Below, piece after piece: positions 2,939 to 10,014 of a stretch of DNA of 10,014 nucleotides. The stretch lies in IMG/VR virus record IMGVR_UViG_3300029107_000029, positions 1 through 10,014 of that record; one strand, 5' to 3'. Source of the stretch: a virus. Its lineage: Duplodnaviria > Heunggongvirae > Uroviricota > Caudoviricetes. Position 1 is the stretch's first letter, and each line of letters starts with the position of its first letter. Both the position numbers and the translations under genes were made by a program. The notes beneath the pieces were generated by a model that saw only the letters and a list, made by a program, of their open reading frames with translations, was not told the origin of the DNA and made no database searches.

Positions 2939-2949
2939 GTGGAGTGGAT

Positions 2950-5307
2950 ATGGCAGCAGTAAAAATCTCAGGTGTGCTGAAAGATGGTGCGGGAAAACCA
3001 ATACAGAACTGCACTATTCAACTGAAGGCAAAGCGTAACAGCACCACGGTACTGGTGAACACGGTGGCCTCTGAAAATCCGGATGAAGCCGGGCGTTACA
3101 GCATGGATGTTGAGTATGGCCAGTACAGCGTCATCCTGCTGGTTGAAGGTTTTCCGCCTTCACATGCCGGGACCATTACCGTCTATGAAGGCTCCAGACC
3201 AGGTACGCTGAATGATTTTCTCGGCGCCATGACGGAAGATGATGTCATGCCGGAGGCATTGCGTCGTTTTGAGGAAATGGTGGAAGAAGCGGCACGCAAC
3301 GCTGAAGCCGCCTCTCAGAGCGCAGCGGCGGCAAAGAAATCCGAAACTGCAGCGGCATCATCGAAGAACGCGGCGAAAACCTCAGAAACGAATGCAGCTA
3401 ACAGCGCACAGGCGGCAGCGGCCTCGCAGACTGCATCGGCAAATTCCGCGACAGCAGCTAAAAAATCAGAAACCAACGCGAAAAATAGCGAGACAGCAGC
3501 AAAGACGAGCGAAACCAACGCAAAGTCCAGCCAGACGGCAGCGAAAACCAGCGAAACGAATGCTAAAGCCAGTGAAACTGCGGCGAAAAATAGCCAGAAT
3601 GCAGCAGCCGAAAGCGAGAGCGCGGCAGCCGGTTCTGCGACTTCAGCAGCTGGATCAGCAACTGCTGCGGCTAACAGCCAGAAAGCAGCGAAGACGAGCG
3701 AAACTAACGCAAAGTCCAGCCAGACGGCAGCGAAGACCAGCGAAACGAATGCCAAAGCCAGCGAAACTGCGGCGAAAAACAGTCAGGATGCAGCAGCCCA
3801 AAGCGAGAGTGCCGCAGCTGGTTCTGCAACAGCGGCAGCTAATAGCCAAAAAGCTGCAAAAACCAGTGAAACTAACGCAAAGACGAGTGAAACAAAAGCA
3901 GCAGCCAGCGAGACAGAAGCAACGTCAGCCGCAACAAGAGCAGAGAATGCAGCCCGGATTGCAGAAGATGCCGCTGATCCTGCTTCTGTCCCTCCGCTTC
4001 CTGATATCTGGCTACCCTTGAATGATTCTCTGGAAGCGATAACAGGGTATGCGCCGGGCTATAAAACAATAACCATCGGCAGTGATGAAATAACAATGCC
4101 TGTTAATGGCATATGCCAATTTAGCCGGGCTTCATCAGCAACGTATATTGATAAGTCCGGGCATATTACCGTAGCAGGTAATAACGTTCCTCGTTTTGAA
4201 AAATATGGTTTGCTGATAGAGAATCAGCGAACAAACATGTTCGTAAATAGTTTTAATCCTGATGCCTGGAATAAAAGCGGTGGTATATCTGTAACATCAT
4301 CAACAGATGAATTTGAGTTTAAATATGGACGTTTCACAGTAGGAAGCGATATAGCAGGAACGACAACAGGGAGAAATATATGCACAGTTGCTGGTAATAA
4401 AGGCATAGATGTGACTGGCGATGATCAGTACAGTAAAGGTCCGTATGTTACCGCGTCGTTCAGGGTAAGAAGTGATCTCAATGTTCGCGCACGTATCCGT
4501 TTTGAACGGTATAACTCGGAAGGATACACTTTCCTTTGTGACGCCTATTTGTCATTACAGACTCATGAACTACAAATTACGGGTGGTAATGCCCAGCTAT
4601 TAACAGCAAACTTTGAAATCGACCCTGGTAGTGGATGGATATATTTTCAGGCAACACTGAAATGTCTGCCAGAATGGGGAATGGTTGGTACGCAGCTGCA
4701 AATTGCAGCCGACAGAGCTGTGGGGTCTTTTGCAACAGGTGACTGGATAGAAGTAACCACCCCGCAATTCGAGTATGGTGCTTGTGCAACTTCCTTTATC
4801 ATAACGACAACAGAGCCAGCGACTCGTGCATCAGATTTATGTAAATTTCCGCTGATGAAAAATATGTATACCATGCCTTTTACGTTCATGGTGGAAGTCC
4901 ATAAAAACTGGTTTATTTCTCATAATGCTGCACCGCGTGTCATTGATTCAGAAAATCACCAGTCCGGAGGCCCATTTATTATGGGGTTTGGTTCTTCTGG
5001 AACTATCAGTCAGGATGGTTATTCGTATTGCGATATAGGCGGGGCTAACCGGCGTGTATATGAGTCATGCGGAGTAAGAGATCTCGTTATGGGATTCAGG
5101 GTTAAGGCTGACGGCATGACATGTTCATTTGCAAATAAGAATATAAGCACTGAAACCAAAACAGTATGGAAATATATTCGTGAAGCAGCCGTGATTCGTA
5201 TCGGGGGGCAAACGACGACAGGATTACGACACCTTAATGGTCATATAAAAAACCTCCGTTTCTGGAACAGAGCATTGTCAGATACGCAGCTTAAGGAATA
5301 CGTATAA
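2950..5307 (+). CDS. stf: Side tail fibre protein (Stf-like), 785 aa: lambda-like N-terminus and Ala/Ser/Thr/Lys-rich repeat shaft, with a non-lambda C-terminal half ending in a LamG/concanavalin-A-like signature
   Basis: Preferred start is ATG 2950 with GGAG at 2941-2944 (5-nt spacer); the GTG at 2944 in the ORF track has no Shine-Dalgarno. N-terminus MAVKISGVLKDGAGKPIQNCTIQLKAKRNSTTV...GRYSMDVEYGQYSVIL...FPPSHAGTITVYE matches recalled lambda Stf. The C-terminal ~450 aa do not resemble lambda Stf; the extreme C-terminus GLRHLNGHIKNLRFWNRALSDTQLKEY fits the characteristic end of LamG_3/concanavalin-like lectin domains (...G.ID.vRiynRALSaeEI...). Confidence 0.85.
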   Translation: MAAVKISGVLKDGAGKPIQNCTIQLKAKRNSTTVLVNTVASENPDEAGRYSMDVEYGQYSVILLVEGFPPSHAGTITVYEGSRPGTLNDFLGAMTEDDVMPEALRRFEEMVEEAARNAEAASQSAAAAKKSETAAASSKNAAKTSETNAANSAQAAAASQTASANSATAAKKSETNAKNSETAAKTSETNAKSSQTAAKTSETNAKASETAAKNSQNAAAESESAAAGSATSAAGSATAAANSQKAAKTSETNAKSSQTAAKTSETNAKASETAAKNSQDAAAQSESAAAGSATAAANSQKAAKTSETNAKTSETKAAASETEATSAATRAENAARIAEDAADPASVPPLPDIWLPLNDSLEAITGYAPGYKTITIGSDEITMPVNGICQFSRASSATYIDKSGHITVAGNNVPRFEKYGLLIENQRTNMFVNSFNPDAWNKSGGISVTSSTDEFEFKYGRFTVGSDIAGTTTGRNICTVAGNKGIDVTGDDQYSKGPYVTASFRVRSDLNVRARIRFERYNSEGYTFLCDAYLSLQTHELQITGGNAQLLTANFEIDPGSGWIYFQATLKCLPEWGMVGTQLQIAADRAVGSFATGDWIEVTTPQFEYGACATSFIITTTEPATRASDLCKFPLMKNMYTMPFTFMVEVHKNWFISHNAAPRVIDSENHQSGGPFIMGFGSSGTISQDGYSYCDIGGANRRVYESCGVRDLVMGFRVKADGMTCSFANKNISTETKTVWKYIREAAVIRIGGQTTTGLRHLNGHIKNLRFWNRALSDTQLKEYV
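3499..3900 (+). repeat. In-frame tandem repeats inside stf (units of 189 bp and 168 bp, about 90% identical, plus a partial third unit), nested in a shorter SETNAK-type periodicity
   Basis: Direct sequence comparison: accaacgcaaagtccagccagacggcagcgaa at 3514 recurs as actaacgcaaagtccagccagacggcagcgaa at 3703 (offset 189 bp = 63 codons) and partially at 3871 (offset 168 bp = 56 codons). Encoded peptide AAKTSETNAKSSQTAAKTSETNAKASETAAKNSQ[N/D]AAA[E/Q]SESAAAGSAT... is repeated. Confidence 0.85.
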
Positions 5308-5576
5308 TGCGGGATATAACATTACGATTCGATAACAGAGAACAGTTTAACGCAATTGTATATGACAGTGGCCTGTTCAGTCTTGAAGAAGAAAATGGGG
5401 TTCTTGTTGATGTTATTGGCTGCATTATTGATTACGAGGAACCAGAAAACGAAAGATGTACAGGCATTGATCGCGGTGGTTTTTTCGTAAACATGAGGAT
5501 TGTTGATGGCAGTAAAAACATATCTTCTTTAATGCCTTTCATTACGACAGATCAGCATGTAAGGACATGGGCTTAA
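5307..5576 (+). CDS. Hypothetical acidic protein, 89 aa, translationally coupled to stf; function unknown (candidate cognate fibre chaperone by position only)
   Basis: Its ATG (5307-5309) overlaps the stf stop TAA (5305-5307) in a TAATG arrangement. No recognisable motif. ORF is intact and co-oriented within a tight operon. Confidence 0.55.
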   Translation: MRDITLRFDNREQFNAIVYDSGLFSLEEENGVLVDVIGCIIDYEEPENERCTGIDRGGFFVNMRIVDGSKNISSLMPFITTDQHVRTWA

Positions 5577-5588
5577 TGGAGTAAGACA

Positions 5589-6293
5589 ATGGTTACAAAA
5601 ACAGTAATTCCAGGAGACATCACCACGTTAAAGGGAGATGTCAGTAAAGCCAAGGAAGATATTTCCTCAATTAACGTAAAAGTATCAACGCTTCAGGCTG
5701 ATATGACCAGTGCAAAGCAGGATATCAGCTCCAGATACACAAAAACTGAAGTTGATAATAAGCTGAAAAACAAACTGGAAGTGAACGATCTGGAAAGTGG
5801 TCGTTATGGTGGAGATTTTTACCCGCTGACTGGCCGTGAAGCGTTTTATTTATGGGGGTTGGGCACGACTACTGCGGCGGCAAACCTTTATCTTAATCCT
5901 GACCCCGCAATTTCGTCTGTGCTGCGGTCAACATCGTCTATCCGCTATAAACATTCAGTAGAGACGATAGATTCGGAGCACGCCGATCTCATTTTCAAGA
6001 TGCGCCCTGTATGGTACAGGTCGCAATGCGAAAATGACAGGCGCGATTGGGGATTCTATGGATTGATTGCCGAGGAAGTAGGAGAAATTGCCCCTCAGTT
6101 TGTTCACTGGCGACCAGCTAACGAAGATGATGCACCGGAAACCATTTCCAGCAATGGCCTTGTTGCCGAAGGTGTAATGTACGAACGTCTGGTTGTTCCA
6201 CTGATTCACCATATCCAGAAGCTGACTGAAAGAGTTGATGAACTTGAGTCAGAATTAAAGTTGTTATTAACTTCCCGAAGCGATATTGGATAA
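5589..6293 (+). CDS. Tail-fibre-like protein, 234 aa: N-terminal coiled-coil-like repeats plus C-terminal peptidase S74 / intramolecular chaperone-like domain
   Basis: ATG 5589 with GGAG at 5578-5581. N-terminal repeats ITTLKGDVSKAKEDISSINVKVSTLQADMTSAKQDISS. C-terminal segment SSIRYK...LIFKMRPVWYR...GLIAEEVGEIAPQFV...GVMYERLVVPLIHHIQKLTERVDELESELKLL fits the recalled S74 'chaperone of endosialidase' pattern (S-x4-K, klrPvtYr, GfIAQEv..P..v, vdY..lv.lli.AiqeL). Confidence 0.7.
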   Translation: MVTKTVIPGDITTLKGDVSKAKEDISSINVKVSTLQADMTSAKQDISSRYTKTEVDNKLKNKLEVNDLESGRYGGDFYPLTGREAFYLWGLGTTTAAANLYLNPDPAISSVLRSTSSIRYKHSVETIDSEHADLIFKMRPVWYRSQCENDRRDWGFYGLIAEEVGEIAPQFVHWRPANEDDAPETISSNGLVAEGVMYERLVVPLIHHIQKLTERVDELESELKLLLTSRSDIG

Positions 6294-6303
6294 AGGAGGA
6301 GTA

Positions 6304-6597
6304 ATGGATATAACACCTTTCCTTCACGCGCTTTGTGCTGTGGCTGCGCAGGTACTGGTTGGTCTTTTTACCGGGAACTGGGCTTACGGAGCGATAGCCG
6401 GTTGTACGTTCTTCATTGCGCGTGAACACACCCAGGCAGAATATCGCTGGATTGAAATGTTCGGGCATGGCAAGCGAATGAATATGCCTTGGTGGGGCGG
6501 TTTTGATCCACGTGCATGGGATGTGGCAAGCCTGATGGATTTTGCTGTGCCGGTGGTGGCGTGTCTGCTGGTCTGGCTGTTGATTAATCGCGGGTGA
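6304..6597 (+). CDS. Small predicted inner-membrane protein, 98 aa, about three hydrophobic segments; function unknown
   Basis: ATG 6304 preceded by AGGAGG (6294-6299); the ORF track's TTG at 6286 overlaps the upstream stop and is less likely. Hydrophobic stretches FLHALCAVAAQVLVGLF, WAYGAIAGCTFFIA and LMDFAVPVVACLLVWLLI. No lipobox or signal-peptidase site recognised. Confidence 0.55.
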   Translation: MDITPFLHALCAVAAQVLVGLFTGNWAYGAIAGCTFFIAREHTQAEYRWIEMFGHGKRMNMPWWGGFDPRAWDVASLMDFAVPVVACLLVWLLINRG

Positions 6598-6606
6598 AAA
6601 AGGTGA

Positions 6607-6735
6607 GCTGTATATGCAACGGAGGGCGAAACCTCGTTGCTGGAAGCCTGGAAGAAGTATCGGGTGTTGCTGAACCGTGTTGATACATCAACTGCACCGG
6701 ATACTGAGTGGCCTCTCATTCCTGCAGCTAATTGA
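6607..6735 (+). pseudogene. tfa: 3' remnant of a tail fibre assembly gene (tfa-like), last ~42 codons, with no start codon
   Basis: Frame-1 translation from 6607 to the TGA at 6733-6735 gives [42 protein letters not shown], which matches my recollection of the conserved C-terminus of lambda-family Tfa (...[29 protein letters not shown]...). It is preceded by in-frame stops at 6595-6597 and 6604-6606 and has no in-frame ATG/GTG with a Shine-Dalgarno. Confidence 0.55.
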
Positions 6736-6753
6736 AAACTAGTTAATTATATT

Positions 6754-6788
6754 CCGCAGCAAATTATACTGGTAATATGCTGCGGTTT
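6754..6788. terminator. Hairpin between the convergent tail-fibre operon and diguanylate cyclase gene; possible weak terminator
   Basis: Inverted repeat ccgcagca (6754-6761) / tgctgcgg (6778-6785) with a 16-nt AT-rich loop, followed on the + strand by ttt. The loop is long and the T-run short, so confidence is low. Confidence 0.3.
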
Positions 6789-6829
6789 AATGATCAGTAA
6801 GTATAATATCGTCTGTTGCCACTAAATAG

Positions 6830-8173
6830 CTATGATAGCTCGCTATGTATGATTACCTTGTTTCTGCCAGTTCTTTTGGCTTCATATAGCGATTCATCTG
6901 CTTGAGCCAAGATTTCTGAAGGCATGAGTTTATTTGAAAGAGTGATGAACCCACCTATGCTGATAGTGACTCTTTCAACCCCATATTTAACAGTAAGATT
7001 TTGTGTTTTCACTTCAACATTCCTTCTTATTCTTTCGCTGATTGCTGAGATCTGAGAAAATGAAAGATCATTGAATACAATGGCGAATTCTTCCCCTCCA
7101 AGTCGGCCGAATAAATCTTTGTTCCTGATTGTCTTTGCAATAATCTTTGTTACTGTGCTTATTACTATATCTCCAGTGTGATGTCCATGCTGGTCATTTA
7201 TCTTCTTGAAGTGATCAATGTCGAGCATTAATACACAAATGGAATTATTATTGTTATTTTTTAATATTGTCTTGAAGGCATTTAAAAAACCACCTCTATT
7301 ATAAGTGTTAGTTAAAAAATCGTGTGATGCCAGATAATCTGAATATTTTAATTTCAAAAATATAAAATACATTAGAGTGCATATGATATATAGGCTGGAT
7401 GCTAGTTCAAACCCTTTGGCCCAATACCATATAGGATAACGTGAATCCATAAAATGCAATAATATTAAGTTATCACATGCTAGAGCAATGCTGATAAAGC
7501 TAATGCAAAACCATATTTTTGAATAATTTTTAATAAAAAAACATGAAGAAACAAGAAGTAATAGCCAGAAATAAATTATCGTCTTAATGTAGAATGTATT
7601 CCATGTCAATTGATGGCTGACGGAGGAATAGTATACTATATTAATAGAGTAGCTTTCATTCGCGCTACTTAATATTTTGGCTGTAAATGATATGAAAATA
7701 AGAATTAGTATGGCAAATAGTATTGTGAATGTATTTTTTCTATTTGCACAAGTGTAAATTTCTTTTGAATGGCTTGAAAAAATAGCAACACAGGAAATTA
7801 ACACAAAGCTTATTTGACGGAAAAAGTAAAATATTGCGACGTCATTTGCCTTCTGGATTATTAAGGATTCAGAAGATATTGGTGTTTGCACAATAATTAT
7901 TGTCTCTACAAAATAATAGAGATTGTTCAGGAATGCAATGGCTAGAATCAGCAGGCAAATTTGTTTTTGATGAGATGTATAGTATAAAAACATAAATATA
8001 CAAATCATAAGGTTTATAAAAAACAGGCCTACAATAAAGATAATATAGTTGGTTTGGGTTGTTTGTGTAAGGTATAGCCAATTTTTCTCATGTAACTGCA
8101 TGAGAAAAAATGAAACAAAGATGAATATAATGGAAAATATTTTTAAACTTACAGGTACTGTACGAGTAGTCAT
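6830..8173 (-). CDS. Membrane-anchored diguanylate cyclase, 447 aa: N-terminal ~8-TM sensor-like domain plus C-terminal GGDEF domain with GGEEF active site and RxxD I-site
   Basis: ATG at 8173 (- strand) with AGGTGG 4 nt upstream (complement of 8178-8183). C-terminal domain contains HDFLTNTYNRGGF, the I-site RNKD five residues upstream of RLGGEEF, and DESLYEAKRTGRNKV. N-terminal 270 aa has about eight hydrophobic segments. The gene is very AT-rich with Ile/Phe/Asn/Lys/Tyr-rich codon usage, unlike the flanking genes. Confidence 0.9.
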   Translation of the reverse strand: MTTRTVPVSLKIFSIIFIFVSFFLMQLHEKNWLYLTQTTQTNYIIFIVGLFFINLMICIFMFLYYTSHQKQICLLILAIAFLNNLYYFVETIIIVQTPISSESLIIQKANDVAIFYFFRQISFVLISCVAIFSSHSKEIYTCANRKNTFTILFAILILIFISFTAKILSSANESYSINIVYYSSVSHQLTWNTFYIKTIIYFWLLLLVSSCFFIKNYSKIWFCISFISIALACDNLILLHFMDSRYPIWYWAKGFELASSLYIICTLMYFIFLKLKYSDYLASHDFLTNTYNRGGFLNAFKTILKNNNNNSICVLMLDIDHFKKINDQHGHHTGDIVISTVTKIIAKTIRNKDLFGRLGGEEFAIVFNDLSFSQISAISERIRRNVEVKTQNLTVKYGVERVTISIGGFITLSNKLMPSEILAQADESLYEAKRTGRNKVIIHSELS

Positions 8174-8239
8174 GCTGCCACCTAAAAAAATGCATATTTA
8201 TTCATGTGTATCAATAAATATGTCTCAGGGTAACTTATT

Positions 8240-8285
8240 CTAAATCAGTATACCATTTGTTATAGATGCTGAAATTATCTTTTTC
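8240..8285 (-). promoter_or_regulatory. Candidate sigma70 promoter for the diguanylate cyclase gene
   Basis: On the - strand: TTTCAG, 16-nt spacer, TATACT (complement of 8247-8252), about 75 nt upstream of the start codon, in an AT-rich region. Pattern match only. Confidence 0.25.
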
Positions 8286-9173
8286 TGTAAAGATGACTTT
8301 TGAATGGTTTGCTGGTTATTAATATGCCTGCTAATTTAAGGTGTATATAGTGAATTTTGAGTGAAATTTTTAATGTGTTATTATTTGTGATGTATGTCAC
8401 AGAGCCATTTGAGGCGGTCAGTATTCATACTGATAATTAGTGTGAAATTATGCTCTGTGTATGGCATATGTAGGGGAAGAGCAGACTTCGATTGTACCTA
8501 TTTGCGGTGAATCCGATATCTTTTATTGCGTTGTTGGTCATGTCATGTTGAACTCGATTTAGATTTTTTAGCCGAACTAACAAGCCTGCAGACATCTGAC
8601 ATTTTTTGTTAGAGCGTACTATTTTGATGCGAAGTCATGTAACTTTGTTTCAGGCTGAAAAAGGGTTTAAATTGGGGGAAGTCCAGCTTGGCTCTGGCTC
8701 GATCTCACTCCTCCTTTACTTCTCCATTCAGACCAGGCATCGCAAATTCACTGCATGAAGATGAGCGATTTTTATATATTGTGAAGTAAGCGTTTTTTCC
8801 TAGAGCGGTTGGCCAGGGCAATACATCTTGGGTTTCCCTGATTCGTACCGCTTATGCTTCGGAGATAAGGGGATATGTGCTCTGTGAACCTAACGGGGAT
8901 GGTACAGCCAGCATCATCGATTTCAGCCCGGTAAAAGAGACGAGGAAAAATGCACAACAGGCACCACACGTTATGCATGGATTCGAATTGCTCATAATTC
9001 ACCAGCACAGCTTTAAATCGTAAAGAGAACCACGCTACGCTGTATGCGAGAATGTATTGTGGTTGGCTGGTGAAATTCCGTTAGTGGATTTACAGCCGGA
9101 ACTGATTCTCTGGGAAAGAAATCATGGGCCAACTCACAGGCCACAGAATGAGAATTCTTAGAATTTTTTCGGT

Positions 9174-9213
9174 GGCAAAAATGGGGCAAAACGCTGCAAA
9201 AGGGGCAAAAAAA
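9174..9213. repeat. Four phased GCAAAA A-tracts at helical periodicity (possible intrinsic bend or clustered protein-binding sites)
   Basis: GCAAAA begins at 9175, 9186, 9196 and 9205 (spacings 11, 10, 9 bp): ggcaaaaatggggcaaaacgctgcaaaaggggcaaaaaaag. Adjacent 8-bp palindrome AGAATTCT at 9151-9158. Confidence 0.5.
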
Positions 9214-9506
9214 GAGTGGATTATCGTAGCTTATTGTTGTCGCTGATGATATTTAACACATTGAAAAATAAGTAAAATACTTATGAGTCAGAGAGTTGTG
9301 ATTTTTGCCCTTACTTGTTCAGGTTGTATTGTTCTTTCTTACTAATTTCTTGATTTTGCAACATTTAATAGTAGCTCAATTCATTATATGGCATCAGAAG
9401 AGTATGCATCATGCCGGGATATCCGACAGCAGAAGTCTGATATAAAAACAGTGGCGTGTATGGTACGGATTAGAGGGGAAAATGTCAGCACATTTGCGAA
9501 ATGAAT

Positions 9507-9532
9507 CAAAAAGCCCGCAGCGACGTGCGGGC
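9507..9532 (-). terminator. Rho-independent terminator of the universal stress protein gene
   Basis: Read on the - strand: gcccgca-cgtcgc-tgcgggc followed by TTTTT (complement of 9508-9512), beginning 9 nt downstream of the stop codon. Confidence 0.65.
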
Positions 9533-9540
9533 GTTAGTTA

Positions 9541-10014
<474 letters not shown>

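What the first reader, a model, noticed from the sequence alone, without database searches (positions are those of the whole stretch)
5589..6293. Stand-alone coiled-coil protein with a peptidase-S74-like intramolecular chaperone domain
S74 chaperone domains normally sit at the C-terminus of long tail fibres or tailspikes, where they drive trimerisation and are then auto-cleaved. Here the domain-like segment, with a candidate Ser-x4-Lys dyad at SSIRYK and the GLIAEEV...P motif, is fused only to a short coiled-coil stalk in a separate 234-aa protein downstream of the fibre gene. It could be a short second fibre, a trans-acting trimerisation chaperone for the new Stf C-terminus (analogous in logic to T4 fibritin), or a decayed fibre fragment. 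The first two would be unusual architecture.
Basis: partly seen in the sequence, partly recalled or inferred. Interest (0 to 1): 0.6.

Follow-up and report, generated by a model that had tools for sequence, protein, structure and literature searches.

The report
Short add-on tail-fibre subunit, self-chaperoned
This 234-residue protein is most likely a small outer piece of the prophage's side tail fibre that plugs onto the main fibre and carries its own cut-off folding domain; the design is common and already annotated in coliphages, so it is ordinary but untested.

Summary
Window 5589-6293 is an intact 234-aa ORF with a GGAG ribosome-binding site. It has eight heptads of coiled coil and a Peptidase_S74 (PF13884) domain scoring above Pfam's threshold. 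The Ser116-x4-Lys121 dyad (SSIRYK) is almost invariant in relatives.

It is not a decayed fragment. The gene is under purifying selection (dN/dS 0.11-0.20), occurs in 746 of 5426 complete E. coli genomes, and is kept in plaque-forming phages.

It is the third gene of a mobile three-gene cassette:
- a fibre with a conserved 440-aa C-terminal module;
- a ~90-aa protein;
- "gene 3".

The cassette occurs in lambdoid, Drexlerviridae, Queuovirinae, T5-like and P2-like phages. All gene-3 proteins share the N-terminus MxTxTxIPxDIxxLK but differ in length (225-574 aa) and in distal domains. The gene-3 body reassorts independently of the fibre C-terminus. In a P2-like prophage the slot holds a fibre half with no S74 domain, followed by a Tfa-type chaperone gene.

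So gene 3 is the folding client, a distal or branch fibre subunit, not a chaperone for Stf. The homologous cassette of phage IrisVonRoten (Gp22-24) has been modelled this way in print.

Attachment, trimer formation and cleavage are inferred, not shown. Verdict: new member of a known kind; modest interest.

The parts
2944..5307 (+). Side tail fibre Stf (787 aa), the proximal fibre. It has a phage_tail_N anchor, an Ala-rich coiled-coil shaft, and a C-terminal 440-aa cassette module.
   Evidence: PF08400 E=6e-67. phrog_1419 full length. NF048003 GTA_spike_fiber at aa 424-629. RcGTA head spike fibre 6tb9, E=6.5e-4. C-terminal 440 aa are 52% identical to IrisVonRoten Gp22.
3964..5304 (+). Conserved cassette module at the Stf C-terminus (aa 341-787), beginning PLPDIWLPLNDSL and ending ...NLRFWNRALSDTQLKEYV.
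   Evidence: 1418 relatives at E<=1e-10, joined to phage_tail_N or P2-type PF12571 N-termini, or lacking either (including T5-like phages). 42-52% identical across phage families. AF2 is confident only for aa 92-273 of this segment.
5307..5576 (+). 'Gene 2': 89-aa protein of unknown fold. Its start overlaps the Stf stop codon (TAATG). It is always found between the fibre gene and gene 3.
   Evidence: phrog_1361 E=2e-30. Homologues lie in the same position in lambdoid, Tempevirinae, Queuovirinae, T5-like and P2-like phages. No significant Pfam hit and no PDB sequence relative.
5578..5581 (+). GGAG ribosome-binding site of gene 3, 7 nt upstream of the ATG.
   Evidence: Read directly from the sequence.
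5589..6293 (+). 'Gene 3': the 234-aa protein of the finding (26.3 kDa), proposed distal or branch fibre subunit.
5589..5633 (+). N-terminal anchor MVTKTVIPGDITTLK (aa 1-15), shared by all gene-3 proteins whatever their distal part.
   Evidence: Invariant M1 T3 T5 I7 P8 D10 I11 in seven cassettes. Same motif in IrisVonRoten Gp24, AKFV33 orf135 and the P2-like gene 3. phrog_4563 and phrog_19752 match only aa 1-32.
5616..5783 (+). Heptad coiled-coil stalk (aa 10-65, eight heptads).
   Evidence: Heptad register, and length differences only in multiples of 7 among 25 homologues. AF2 helix 12-47 with pLDDT 77-86.
5784..5933 (+). Pre-cleavage tip segment (aa 66-115). It would be the distal end of the mature protein.
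   Evidence: 0-3.7 non-synonymous against 6-8.3 synonymous differences between alleles. The same segment directly precedes the chaperone domain at the C-terminus of long Stf proteins P0065, P0066, P0071 and P0072. pLDDT <50 in the monomer model.
5934..5951 (+). SSIRYK: candidate catalytic Ser116 and Lys121. Cleavage is predicted just before Ser116.
   Evidence: Ser in 197 of 199 and Lys in 200 of 200 relatives. Aligns to profile position 1 of PF13884 and to 'SGIEYK' of 8hqz_d.
5934..6290 (+). Intramolecular chaperone (S74 / ICA) domain, aa 116-234 (13.8 kDa), ending in a long helix 198-233.
6304..6597 (+). 97-aa predicted membrane protein (phrog_1443). It is a neighbour and not part of the cassette in virulent phages.
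   Evidence: phrog_1443 E=4.5e-59 over aa 7-102 of the TTG-started ORF. Similarity to PhiR47_1 resumes exactly at its ATG. Absent after gene 3 in KarlJaspers and SECphi27.
6607..6735 (+). 3' remnant (42 codons plus stop) of a Tfa-type tail fibre assembly gene. It is a scar of an earlier Stf-Tfa or gene 3-Tfa arrangement.
   Evidence: PF02413 Caudo_TAP positions 95-130 of 131, E=1.3e-14. A stop codon lies immediately upstream. RefSeq annotates the equivalent stretch as a partial tail fiber assembly protein.

Best explanation
The ORF encodes the distal (or side-branch) subunit of a two-part side tail fibre.

Proposed steps, all inferred unless marked shown:
1. Three chains are brought into register from the C-terminus by the S74 intramolecular chaperone domain (aa 116-234).
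2. This folds the small tip (aa 66-115) and zips up the heptad coiled coil (aa 10-65).
3. The Ser116/Lys121 dyad then cuts the chain before Ser116. The 13.8-kDa chaperone leaves, and a 12.5-kDa-per-chain rod with a small tip remains.
4. The conserved N-terminal anchor (MVTKTVIPGDITTLK) docks this rod non-covalently onto the conserved C-terminal module of Stf, possibly with the 89-aa gene-2 protein as connector.

The chaperone domain therefore serves its own polypeptide, not Stf.

Shown here: the domain, the conserved dyad, the heptad stalk, the conserved anchor, the cassette synteny and the independent reassortment of the gene-3 body. Inferred: trimer formation, cleavage, docking, presence in the virion and any receptor binding.
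For: (a) S74 domain, dyad and fold.

(b) The cassette fibre / ~90-aa gene / gene 3 is conserved in lambdoid phages (PhiR49_1, PhiR47_1, BL21 remnant), Tempevirinae, Queuovirinae, T5-like phages and a P2-like prophage.

(c) Gene 3 ranges from 225 to 574 aa with different middle domains but one shared N-terminus. A conserved anchor with a variable distal part is the usual layout of swappable receptor-binding proteins.

(d) Window versus PhiR47_1: 99% and 97% nucleotide identity through the Stf 3' end and gene 2. The sequences then become unalignable within the first ~60 nt of gene 3 and stay so to its stop. Identity returns to 93.5% from the next gene's ATG.

(e) PhiR49_1 and BL21 have a fibre C-terminus 44-46% and a gene 2 31-36% identical to the window's, yet gene 3 is 97% identical over its last 119 residues and 95% overall.

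(f) In the P2-like prophage the slot holds a 303-aa fibre half (Gp34_trimer, fibre repeats, no S74) with the same anchor. It is followed by a Caudo_TAP chaperone gene. Gene 3 is therefore the client of a folding helper.

(g) The tip-plus-chaperone module (aa ~37-234) forms the extreme C-terminus of genuine long Stf proteins at 55-59% identity.

(h) Stalk indels occur only in whole heptads. dN/dS is 0.11-0.20.

(i) For the homologous cassette of IrisVonRoten, published AlphaFold-Multimer models place Gp24 as a distal receptor-binding fibre on the proximal fibre Gp22 (PMC11990801). Homology to the window was checked.
Against: No experiment or complex model supports docking, trimerisation or cleavage for this protein.

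The mature part is very small: about 50 residues per chain beyond the coil. It may not bind a receptor at all.

Across lambdoid and Tempevirinae phages this short gene 3 is the most conserved gene of the cassette (58% identity, against 31-38% for its neighbours). A host-range determinant would be expected to vary more.

Virion mass spectrometry in two relatives (swan01, AKFV33) did not report the gene-3 product. Those surveys found only 4-5 proteins each.

GenBank annotators call the family a 'putative lateral tail fiber chaperone'.
Confidence: 0.68

Rival explanations
1. Structural cap or terminator. The protein docks onto Stf as in the best explanation but has no receptor-binding role. It is a minimal 'blank' filling the gene-3 slot, needed only to complete or stabilise the fibre end. 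Host recognition would be left to the lectin-like C-terminal module of Stf and to J.
For: Only about 50 residues per chain lie between the coil and the cleavage site. This short form is conserved at 56-60% identity across about 45 virulent phages, many of them isolated on rough-LPS K-12. The published model for IrisVonRoten Gp22 proposes that the protruding galectin-like domain of the proximal fibre may itself be a receptor-binding domain.
Against: The same ~50-residue segment is the extreme distal end of long single-chain Stf proteins, where it is the only candidate tip. It is under strong purifying selection. Nothing here tests binding either way.
Confidence: 0.15
2. Trans-acting trimerisation chaperone or clamp for Stf. 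Trimerisation driven by the S74 domain would be passed on to Stf or to the gene-2 protein, after which the protein is released or cut.
For: This Stf has neither a C-terminal S74 domain nor an intact Tfa partner; only a 42-codon Tfa remnant remains. Gene 3 always accompanies this fibre C-terminus. BASEL annotators wrote 'putative lateral tail fiber chaperone' and the phage 9g paper wrote 'cognate chaperone'.
Against: Gene 3 does not co-vary with the supposed client: nearly identical gene 3 with 44-46%-identical Stf C-termini, and a different gene 3 with a 98%-identical Stf C-terminus. The slot can hold an S74-less fibre half that needs its own Tfa. Gene-3 proteins reach 510-574 aa and carry fibre-tip domains. 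Conservation of the cleavage dyad and of the pre-cleavage tip points to a cis substrate. The chaperone labels simply follow the Pfam domain name 'Chaperone of endosialidase', and I found no experiment behind them.
Confidence: 0.1
3. Decayed fragment: the leftover 3' end of a once longer fibre gene, no longer functional.
For: phrog_3299 aligns the whole protein to positions 1147-1383 of a 1385-position profile. Long Stf proteins end in the same module. The window also holds a true remnant, the tfa 3' end.
Against: The ORF is intact and has a ribosome-binding site. dN/dS is 0.11-0.20. It is full length in 740 E. coli genomes. It is retained as a separate gene of the same size in compact virulent phage genomes and in inducible plaque-forming phages. 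Its own N-terminal anchor is absent from the fused long fibres.
Confidence: 0.02

Closest known systems
IrisVonRoten (Bas32, T5-like) lateral fibre cassette Gp22-Gp23-Gp24, published as AlphaFold-Multimer models of a 'T-shaped tail fiber' on a proximal fibre (Humolli et al., PLoS Biol 2025, PMC11990801)
   Same: Homologous three-gene cassette. The Gp22 C-terminal 440 aa are 52% identical to this Stf C-terminus. Gp23 (92 aa) is 36% identical to gene 2. Gp24 starts MVTKTVIPTDITKLK and ends in an S74 chaperone domain.
   Different: Gp24 is 574 aa with two receptor-binding domains (Gp12-like and T5-like). The protein here is 234 aa, with only a coiled coil and a ~50-residue tip before the chaperone. 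The proximal fibre has a T5-type rather than a lambda-type N-terminus. The published arrangement is itself a prediction.
DT57C / DT571/2 branched L-shaped tail fibres LtfA-LtfB (Golomidova et al. 2016, PMC4728585; cryo-EM entry 8hqz)
   Same: A second fibre protein rides on the first. Both carry C-terminal pfam13884 domains with predicted autocleavage. The LtfA C-terminus is the best PDB sequence match to this protein.
   Different: The LtfB N-terminus (MSRPLMPKSG...) lacks the MxTxTxIP anchor. There is no gene-2 homologue between ltfA and ltfB. LtfA carries the AKFV33-type distal part fused in one chain, without the anchor. This is an analogue, not the same cassette.
Phage T5 pb1 L-shaped fibre C-terminus and K1F endosialidase C-terminal intramolecular chaperone (MEROPS S74; Garcia-Doval 2015, Schulz 2010, as cited)
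   Same: Same domain family, with the Ser-x4-Lys dyad at the domain boundary, a G-x-I-A-[EQ]-E motif and a C-terminal helix.
   Different: In those proteins the domain ends a polypeptide of about 1000 aa or more that is anchored directly to the virion. Here it ends a 234-aa polypeptide that must dock onto another fibre.
Lambda Stf-Tfa and P2 gpH-gpG (fibre plus trans-acting Caudo_TAP chaperone)
   Same: Same position in the genome, after J and lom. The Stf N-terminus is the lambda type. A Tfa remnant survives downstream. A P2-like variant of the cassette still uses Caudo_TAP for its gene 3.
   Different: The protein has no sequence similarity to Tfa. Folding help here is in cis and self-removing.
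T4 fibritin foldon
   Same: A coiled coil with a C-terminal trimerisation element.
   Different: No homology was detected in any search. From general knowledge, the foldon is not cleaved off. The resemblance is one of logic only.

Membership tests
Peptidase S74 / intramolecular chaperone auto-processing domain (PF13884) | Profile match above the curated threshold | tested here: met
   27.5 bits against gathering score 22, E=3.9e-6, aa 116-172 against profile positions 1-57 of 58
Peptidase S74 / intramolecular chaperone auto-processing domain (PF13884) | Ser and Lys five residues apart at the N-terminal boundary of the domain | tested here: met
   S116 and K121 present. Ser kept in 197 of 199 and Lys in 200 of 200 relatives.
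Peptidase S74 / intramolecular chaperone auto-processing domain (PF13884) | Characteristic fold ending in a long C-terminal helix | tested here: met
   AF2 pLDDT 81-92 for aa 131-230, helix 198-233. Foldseek 7dc3 E=6e-5 (prob 1.0); 3gud E=0.1 and 3gw6 E=0.5 are weaker.
Peptidase S74 / intramolecular chaperone auto-processing domain (PF13884) | Located at the extreme C-terminus of a fibre or spike polypeptide | tested here: met
   The domain runs to the last residues. The median is 2 residues after the domain in relatives.
Peptidase S74 / intramolecular chaperone auto-processing domain (PF13884) | Homotrimerisation and autoproteolytic release | not testable with these tools
   Needs expression with S116A and K121A mutants.
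Split lateral-fibre cassette (IrisVonRoten Gp22-24 / AKFV33 orf137-135 type) | Proximal fibre ending in the conserved 440-aa module (PLPD[IV]W...; GTA_spike_fiber domain; ...R[IF]W[HN][KR]xL[TS]D end) | tested here: met
Split lateral-fibre cassette (IrisVonRoten Gp22-24 / AKFV33 orf137-135 type) | ~90-aa phrog_1361 gene immediately after the fibre gene | tested here: met
Split lateral-fibre cassette (IrisVonRoten Gp22-24 / AKFV33 orf137-135 type) | Third gene starting MxTxTxIPxDIxxLK followed by a coiled coil | tested here: met
Split lateral-fibre cassette (IrisVonRoten Gp22-24 / AKFV33 orf137-135 type) | Physical attachment of the gene-3 trimer to the proximal fibre in the virion | not testable with these tools
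   Only a published prediction exists, for Gp22/Gp24. Virion proteomics of relatives were too shallow.
Tfa / Caudo_TAP trans-acting tail fibre assembly chaperones (PF02413) | Profile similarity to Caudo_TAP | tested here: not met
   No hit for this protein in Pfam, NCBIfam or PHROGs. The only Caudo_TAP signal in the window is the remnant at 6607-6735.
Tfa / Caudo_TAP trans-acting tail fibre assembly chaperones (PF02413) | Co-variation with the fibre tip it folds | tested here: not met
   The gene-3 body reassorts independently of the Stf C-terminus.

The most novel reading that the evidence does not exclude
The minimal gene 3 is not a receptor binder. It would be a detachable, self-cleaving trimerisation clamp: its S74 domain sets the three-fold register of its own coiled coil, and through the N-terminal anchor also that of the distal end of Stf and/or the gene-2 protein. 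That would make it an intramolecular chaperone domain recruited to act across a non-covalent junction. The longer gene-3 variants would then have added receptor-binding domains to this scaffold.
Probability: 0.08. Interest if true: 0.6.

Novelty: new member of a known kind. Interest (0 to 1): 0.3.

Why it matters
The gene-3 slot looks like a natural plug-in socket. Five phage lineages (lambdoid, T1-like, Queuovirinae, T5-like, P2-like) share one short N-terminal anchor, and behind it distal fibre parts are exchanged. Each distal part brings its own folding aid, either a self-cleaving S74 domain or a separate Tfa.

If docking is confirmed, the 15-residue anchor plus heptad stalk would be a compact handle for retargeting side tail fibres in engineered lambda-like phages.

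It would also correct a misleading database label. 'Chaperone of endosialidase' and 'lateral tail fiber chaperone' are attached to hundreds of phage and prophage genes that more likely encode structural fibre subunits.

For this particular ORF the result is mainly a clarification, not a discovery.

Tried and rejected
- Trimer model: I joined three copies with Gly-Ser linkers, aligned them with eight similarly tripled homologues (A4) and submitted the alignment to AlphaFold2. There is therefore no trimer or complex model.
- Homologue search for the 89-aa gene 2 returned only four near-identical fragments, so no alignment-based model was possible. A profile of 10 cassette copies found nothing in the PDB.
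- AlphaFold2 of the Stf C-terminal 447 aa, run to see whether it folds as an independent globular domain (which would argue against a need for a trimerisation chaperone): mean pLDDT 49.5, confident only for aa 92-273. The result is inconclusive, and I ran no fold search on it.
- Virion proteomics in the literature: swan01 (5 proteins found) and AKFV33 (4 gel bands, including the proximal fibre orf137) do not report gene 3, but neither could have excluded it.
- Literature searches for experiments on stand-alone S74 proteins or on this cassette found only annotation-level statements.
- DT57C LtfB as a direct homologue: rejected, because its N-terminus is unrelated and gene 2 is absent.
- An exact 40-mer from the neighbouring diguanylate cyclase gene found nothing in the one-genome-per-species collection. 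Rfam found nothing in the window.
- Rejected on the evidence: a pseudogene or fragment; a Tfa-like chaperone; a fibritin homologue.
Full report
**Setting**

The window is the right end of a lambda-like prophage. In order it holds:
- the tip protein J (20-2218);
- Lom (2286-2885);
- a 787-aa side tail fibre Stf (2944-5307);
- an 89-aa gene (5307-5576);
- the 234-aa ORF of the finding (5589-6293);
- a 97-aa predicted membrane protein (6304-6597);
- a 42-codon remnant of a Tfa chaperone gene (6607-6735).

After these come non-phage genes, including a MASE4-GGDEF diguanylate cyclase and a universal stress protein.

- The ORF has an ATG start with GGAG 7 nt upstream.
- Pfam's Peptidase_S74 model matches aa 116-172 above its curated threshold, at 27.5 against 22 bits.
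- SSIRYK is aa 116-121 and GLIAEEV is aa 158-164.
- In relatives drawn from two large protein searches, Ser116 is kept in 197 of 199 and Lys121 in 200 of 200 aligned stretches.
- An AlphaFold2 monomer model is confident for the N-terminal helix and for aa 120-233. Its best solved-structure match is the MyRF ICA domain, followed more weakly by the GA-1 and endosialidase intramolecular chaperones.
- The closest solved sequence is the C-terminus of the DT57C L-shaped tail fibre.
- The stalk reads as eight heptads from Asp10. Among 25 homologues its length differs only by whole heptads: -21, -14, -7, 0 or +21 residues. This is what a rigid coiled-coil rod kept in register would show.

**It is a working gene, not debris**

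- Pairwise dN/dS between five full-length alleles is 0.11-0.20. Almost all amino-acid change lies in the first 65 residues.
- The gene is found in 746 of 5426 complete E. coli genomes, full length in 740. It is also in the B-strain remnant carried by BL21.
- Plaque-forming temperate phages carry it at 94-95% identity (PhiR49_1, PhiR55_1, IdasGreatGrand). About 45 virulent Drexlerviridae carry it at 56-60% identity, always as a separate gene of 200-235 aa.

**The cassette**

In every one of these genomes the gene is third in a fixed trio:
- a fibre whose last ~440 residues are conserved (42-52% identity across families);
- a ~90-aa protein (phrog_1361, about 30-36% identity);
- gene 3.

The fibre's C-terminal module has 1418 relatives. 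It is spliced onto lambda-type and P2-type N-terminal anchors, and onto others including T5-like ones.

Searching with the small protein and with the N-terminus of gene 3 showed the same trio in four further groups:
- Queuovirinae: JenP2 and KurtStettler;
- T5-like phages: IrisVonRoten and AKFV33;
- another lambdoid phage, PhiR47_1;
- a P2-like prophage.

**What gene 3 is**

Across these cassettes gene 3 is 225, 234, 294, 303, 348, 510, 557 or 574 aa long. All versions begin M-x-T-x-T-x-I-P-x-D-I-x-x-L-K followed by a coiled coil. What follows differs.

Three comparisons bear on its role.

1. The window and PhiR47_1 are 97-99% identical in DNA through the end of Stf and through gene 2. They become unalignable within the first ~60 nt of gene 3 and stay so to its stop codon. 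They are 93.5% identical again from the ATG of the next gene. The distal part of gene 3 has therefore been exchanged under an unchanged Stf.
2. The converse also occurs. PhiR49_1 and BL21 have a Stf C-terminus only 44-46% identical and a gene 2 only 31-36% identical to the window's. Their gene 3 is nevertheless 97% identical over its last 119 residues and 95% overall. A dedicated chaperone should track its client; this gene does not.
3. In the P2-like prophage the slot is filled by a 303-aa protein with the same anchor. It has fibre repeats and a Gp34_trimer domain but no S74 domain, and a Caudo_TAP (Tfa-type) chaperone gene follows it directly. Gene 3 is thus something that needs a folding helper. 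It brings one either in cis (S74) or in trans (Tfa).

Consistent with this, residues ~37-234 of the window protein match the extreme C-termini of genuine long Stf proteins of 735-1243 aa at 55-59% identity. This also explains why a PHROG profile aligned the protein to positions 1147-1383 of 1385. The module exists both fused and split, and this ORF is the split form. The anchor motif is absent from the fused forms I examined (P0065, P0066, P0071, P0072 and DT57C LtfA).

**Mechanism**

The most likely sequence of events is this:
1. The S74 domain trimerises and folds the small tip and coiled coil of its own chain.
2. It cuts itself off before Ser116, leaving 12.5 kDa per chain.
3. The N-terminal anchor docks the rod onto the conserved end of Stf, perhaps through the gene-2 protein.

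These steps are inferred. They rest on the family's established behaviour in endosialidases and T5 pb1 (as summarised) and on the comparative pattern above.

For the homologous cassette of IrisVonRoten, published AlphaFold-Multimer models place Gp24 on the proximal fibre Gp22, whose galectin-like domain protrudes sideways (PMC11990801). I confirmed that Gp22, Gp23 and Gp24 are homologues of the three window genes and that Gp24 starts MVTKTVIPTDITKLK.

**Open points**

- The mature part is tiny, and this short form is unusually well conserved for a host-range determinant. It may be a structural cap rather than a receptor binder.
- A role as a trimerisation clamp for Stf cannot be fully excluded.
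- I could not model the trimer or the complex. The model of the Stf C-terminus was too poor to use. Gene 2 has no recognisable fold or relatives of known function.
- The only virion proteomics on relatives were too shallow to detect a minor fibre protein.

**Comparison with known systems and novelty**

The domain is a regular member of the S74 family. The cassette is the one annotated in RefSeq as 'tail fiber domain-containing protein' and in BASEL phage records as 'putative lateral tail fiber chaperone'. The second label appears to be copied from the Pfam domain name rather than from any test.

The branched LtfA-LtfB fibre of DT57C is a functional analogue. It is not the same cassette.

The ORF is therefore a new, minimal member of a known kind.

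Noticed in passing
window 6607-6735 (+): A 42-codon 3' remnant of a Caudo_TAP (Tfa) tail fibre assembly gene, preceded by a stop codon. It is probably a scar from replacement of a Tfa-dependent fibre end by the S74-type gene 3. RefSeq marks the same stretch as a partial gene in other strains.
   Followed up: partly
window 6304-6597 (+): A 97-aa predicted membrane protein (phrog_1443, no Pfam match) lies between gene 3 and the Tfa remnant. Some part of the query window 5200-6700 matched in 4782 of 5426 complete E. coli genomes, and among the sampled hits the commonly matched parts are this gene and the tfa remnant. That is far more genomes than carry gene 3. It is absent from the cassette in virulent phages. 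Function unknown; possibly a prophage-borne accessory gene.
   Followed up: no
window 5307-5576 (+); also L003:5720-5998, L012:6001-6279, L019:6322-6600: The ~90-aa 'gene 2' is conserved in five phage lineages, with invariant residues M1, D3, F8, E27, D35, I37, G38, G58, V61, N62, R64, I65, R86 and W88. It has no Pfam, NCBIfam or PDB relative. Its role (connector, chaperone or fibre component) is unknown. It may be the more interesting unknown of the cassette.
   Followed up: partly
window 6830-8173 (-) and 9541-9975 (-): A MASE4-GGDEF diguanylate cyclase lies about 100 nt beyond the Tfa remnant, i.e. next to the prophage end. A UspF-like gene follows. Together with the tfa remnant, this flank matches complete E. 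coli genomes only in part (at most 41% of 6600-10014) and at 85-93% identity. The window may therefore come from a non-coli Escherichia lineage. The closest species-level hit for gene 3 was Escherichia sp. E1V33.
   Followed up: partly
window 3239-4021 (+ and -): Long alternative-frame ORFs (260 aa on +, 146 aa on -) lie inside the Stf gene. They are by-products of the repetitive Ala/Ser/Thr/Lys-rich shaft (AAKTSETNAK-like repeats), not separate genes.
   Followed up: no
window 4213-4830 (Stf aa 424-629): The Stf C-terminal module contains a domain related to the head spike fibre of the Rhodobacter gene transfer agent (NF048003; PDB 6tb9, E=6.5e-4). It is the only part of the 447-aa segment that AlphaFold2 modelled with confidence.
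   Followed up: partly
L019:4001-8052 (P2-like E. coli prophage): The same cassette sits at the gpH position of a P2-like prophage. It comprises a fibre with a P2-type N-terminus, gene 2, a 303-aa S74-less gene 3 and a Caudo_TAP gene. This shows the cassette crossing from siphoviruses to myoviruses.
   Followed up: yes
L014, L015, L016 (genome-contig hits): Short contigs 95-96% identical to gene 3 are filed under a Collinsella MAG, Corallococcus exercitus and Alkalicoccobacillus porphyridii. They have low coverage and are 267-2836 bp long. They look like E. coli or coliphage contamination or mis-binning in those assemblies.
   Followed up: no
window 5589-5600 versus L001, L002, L009, L011: Residues 2 and 4 of gene 3 track the upstream allele: MVTKT with the 89-aa gene 2, MATST with the 93-aa gene 2. 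The rest of gene 3 is 93-97% identical in DNA, and many E. coli hits start only at nt 13 of the gene. Either a recombination breakpoint lies at about codon 5, or the anchor is co-adapted to its partner.
   Followed up: partly
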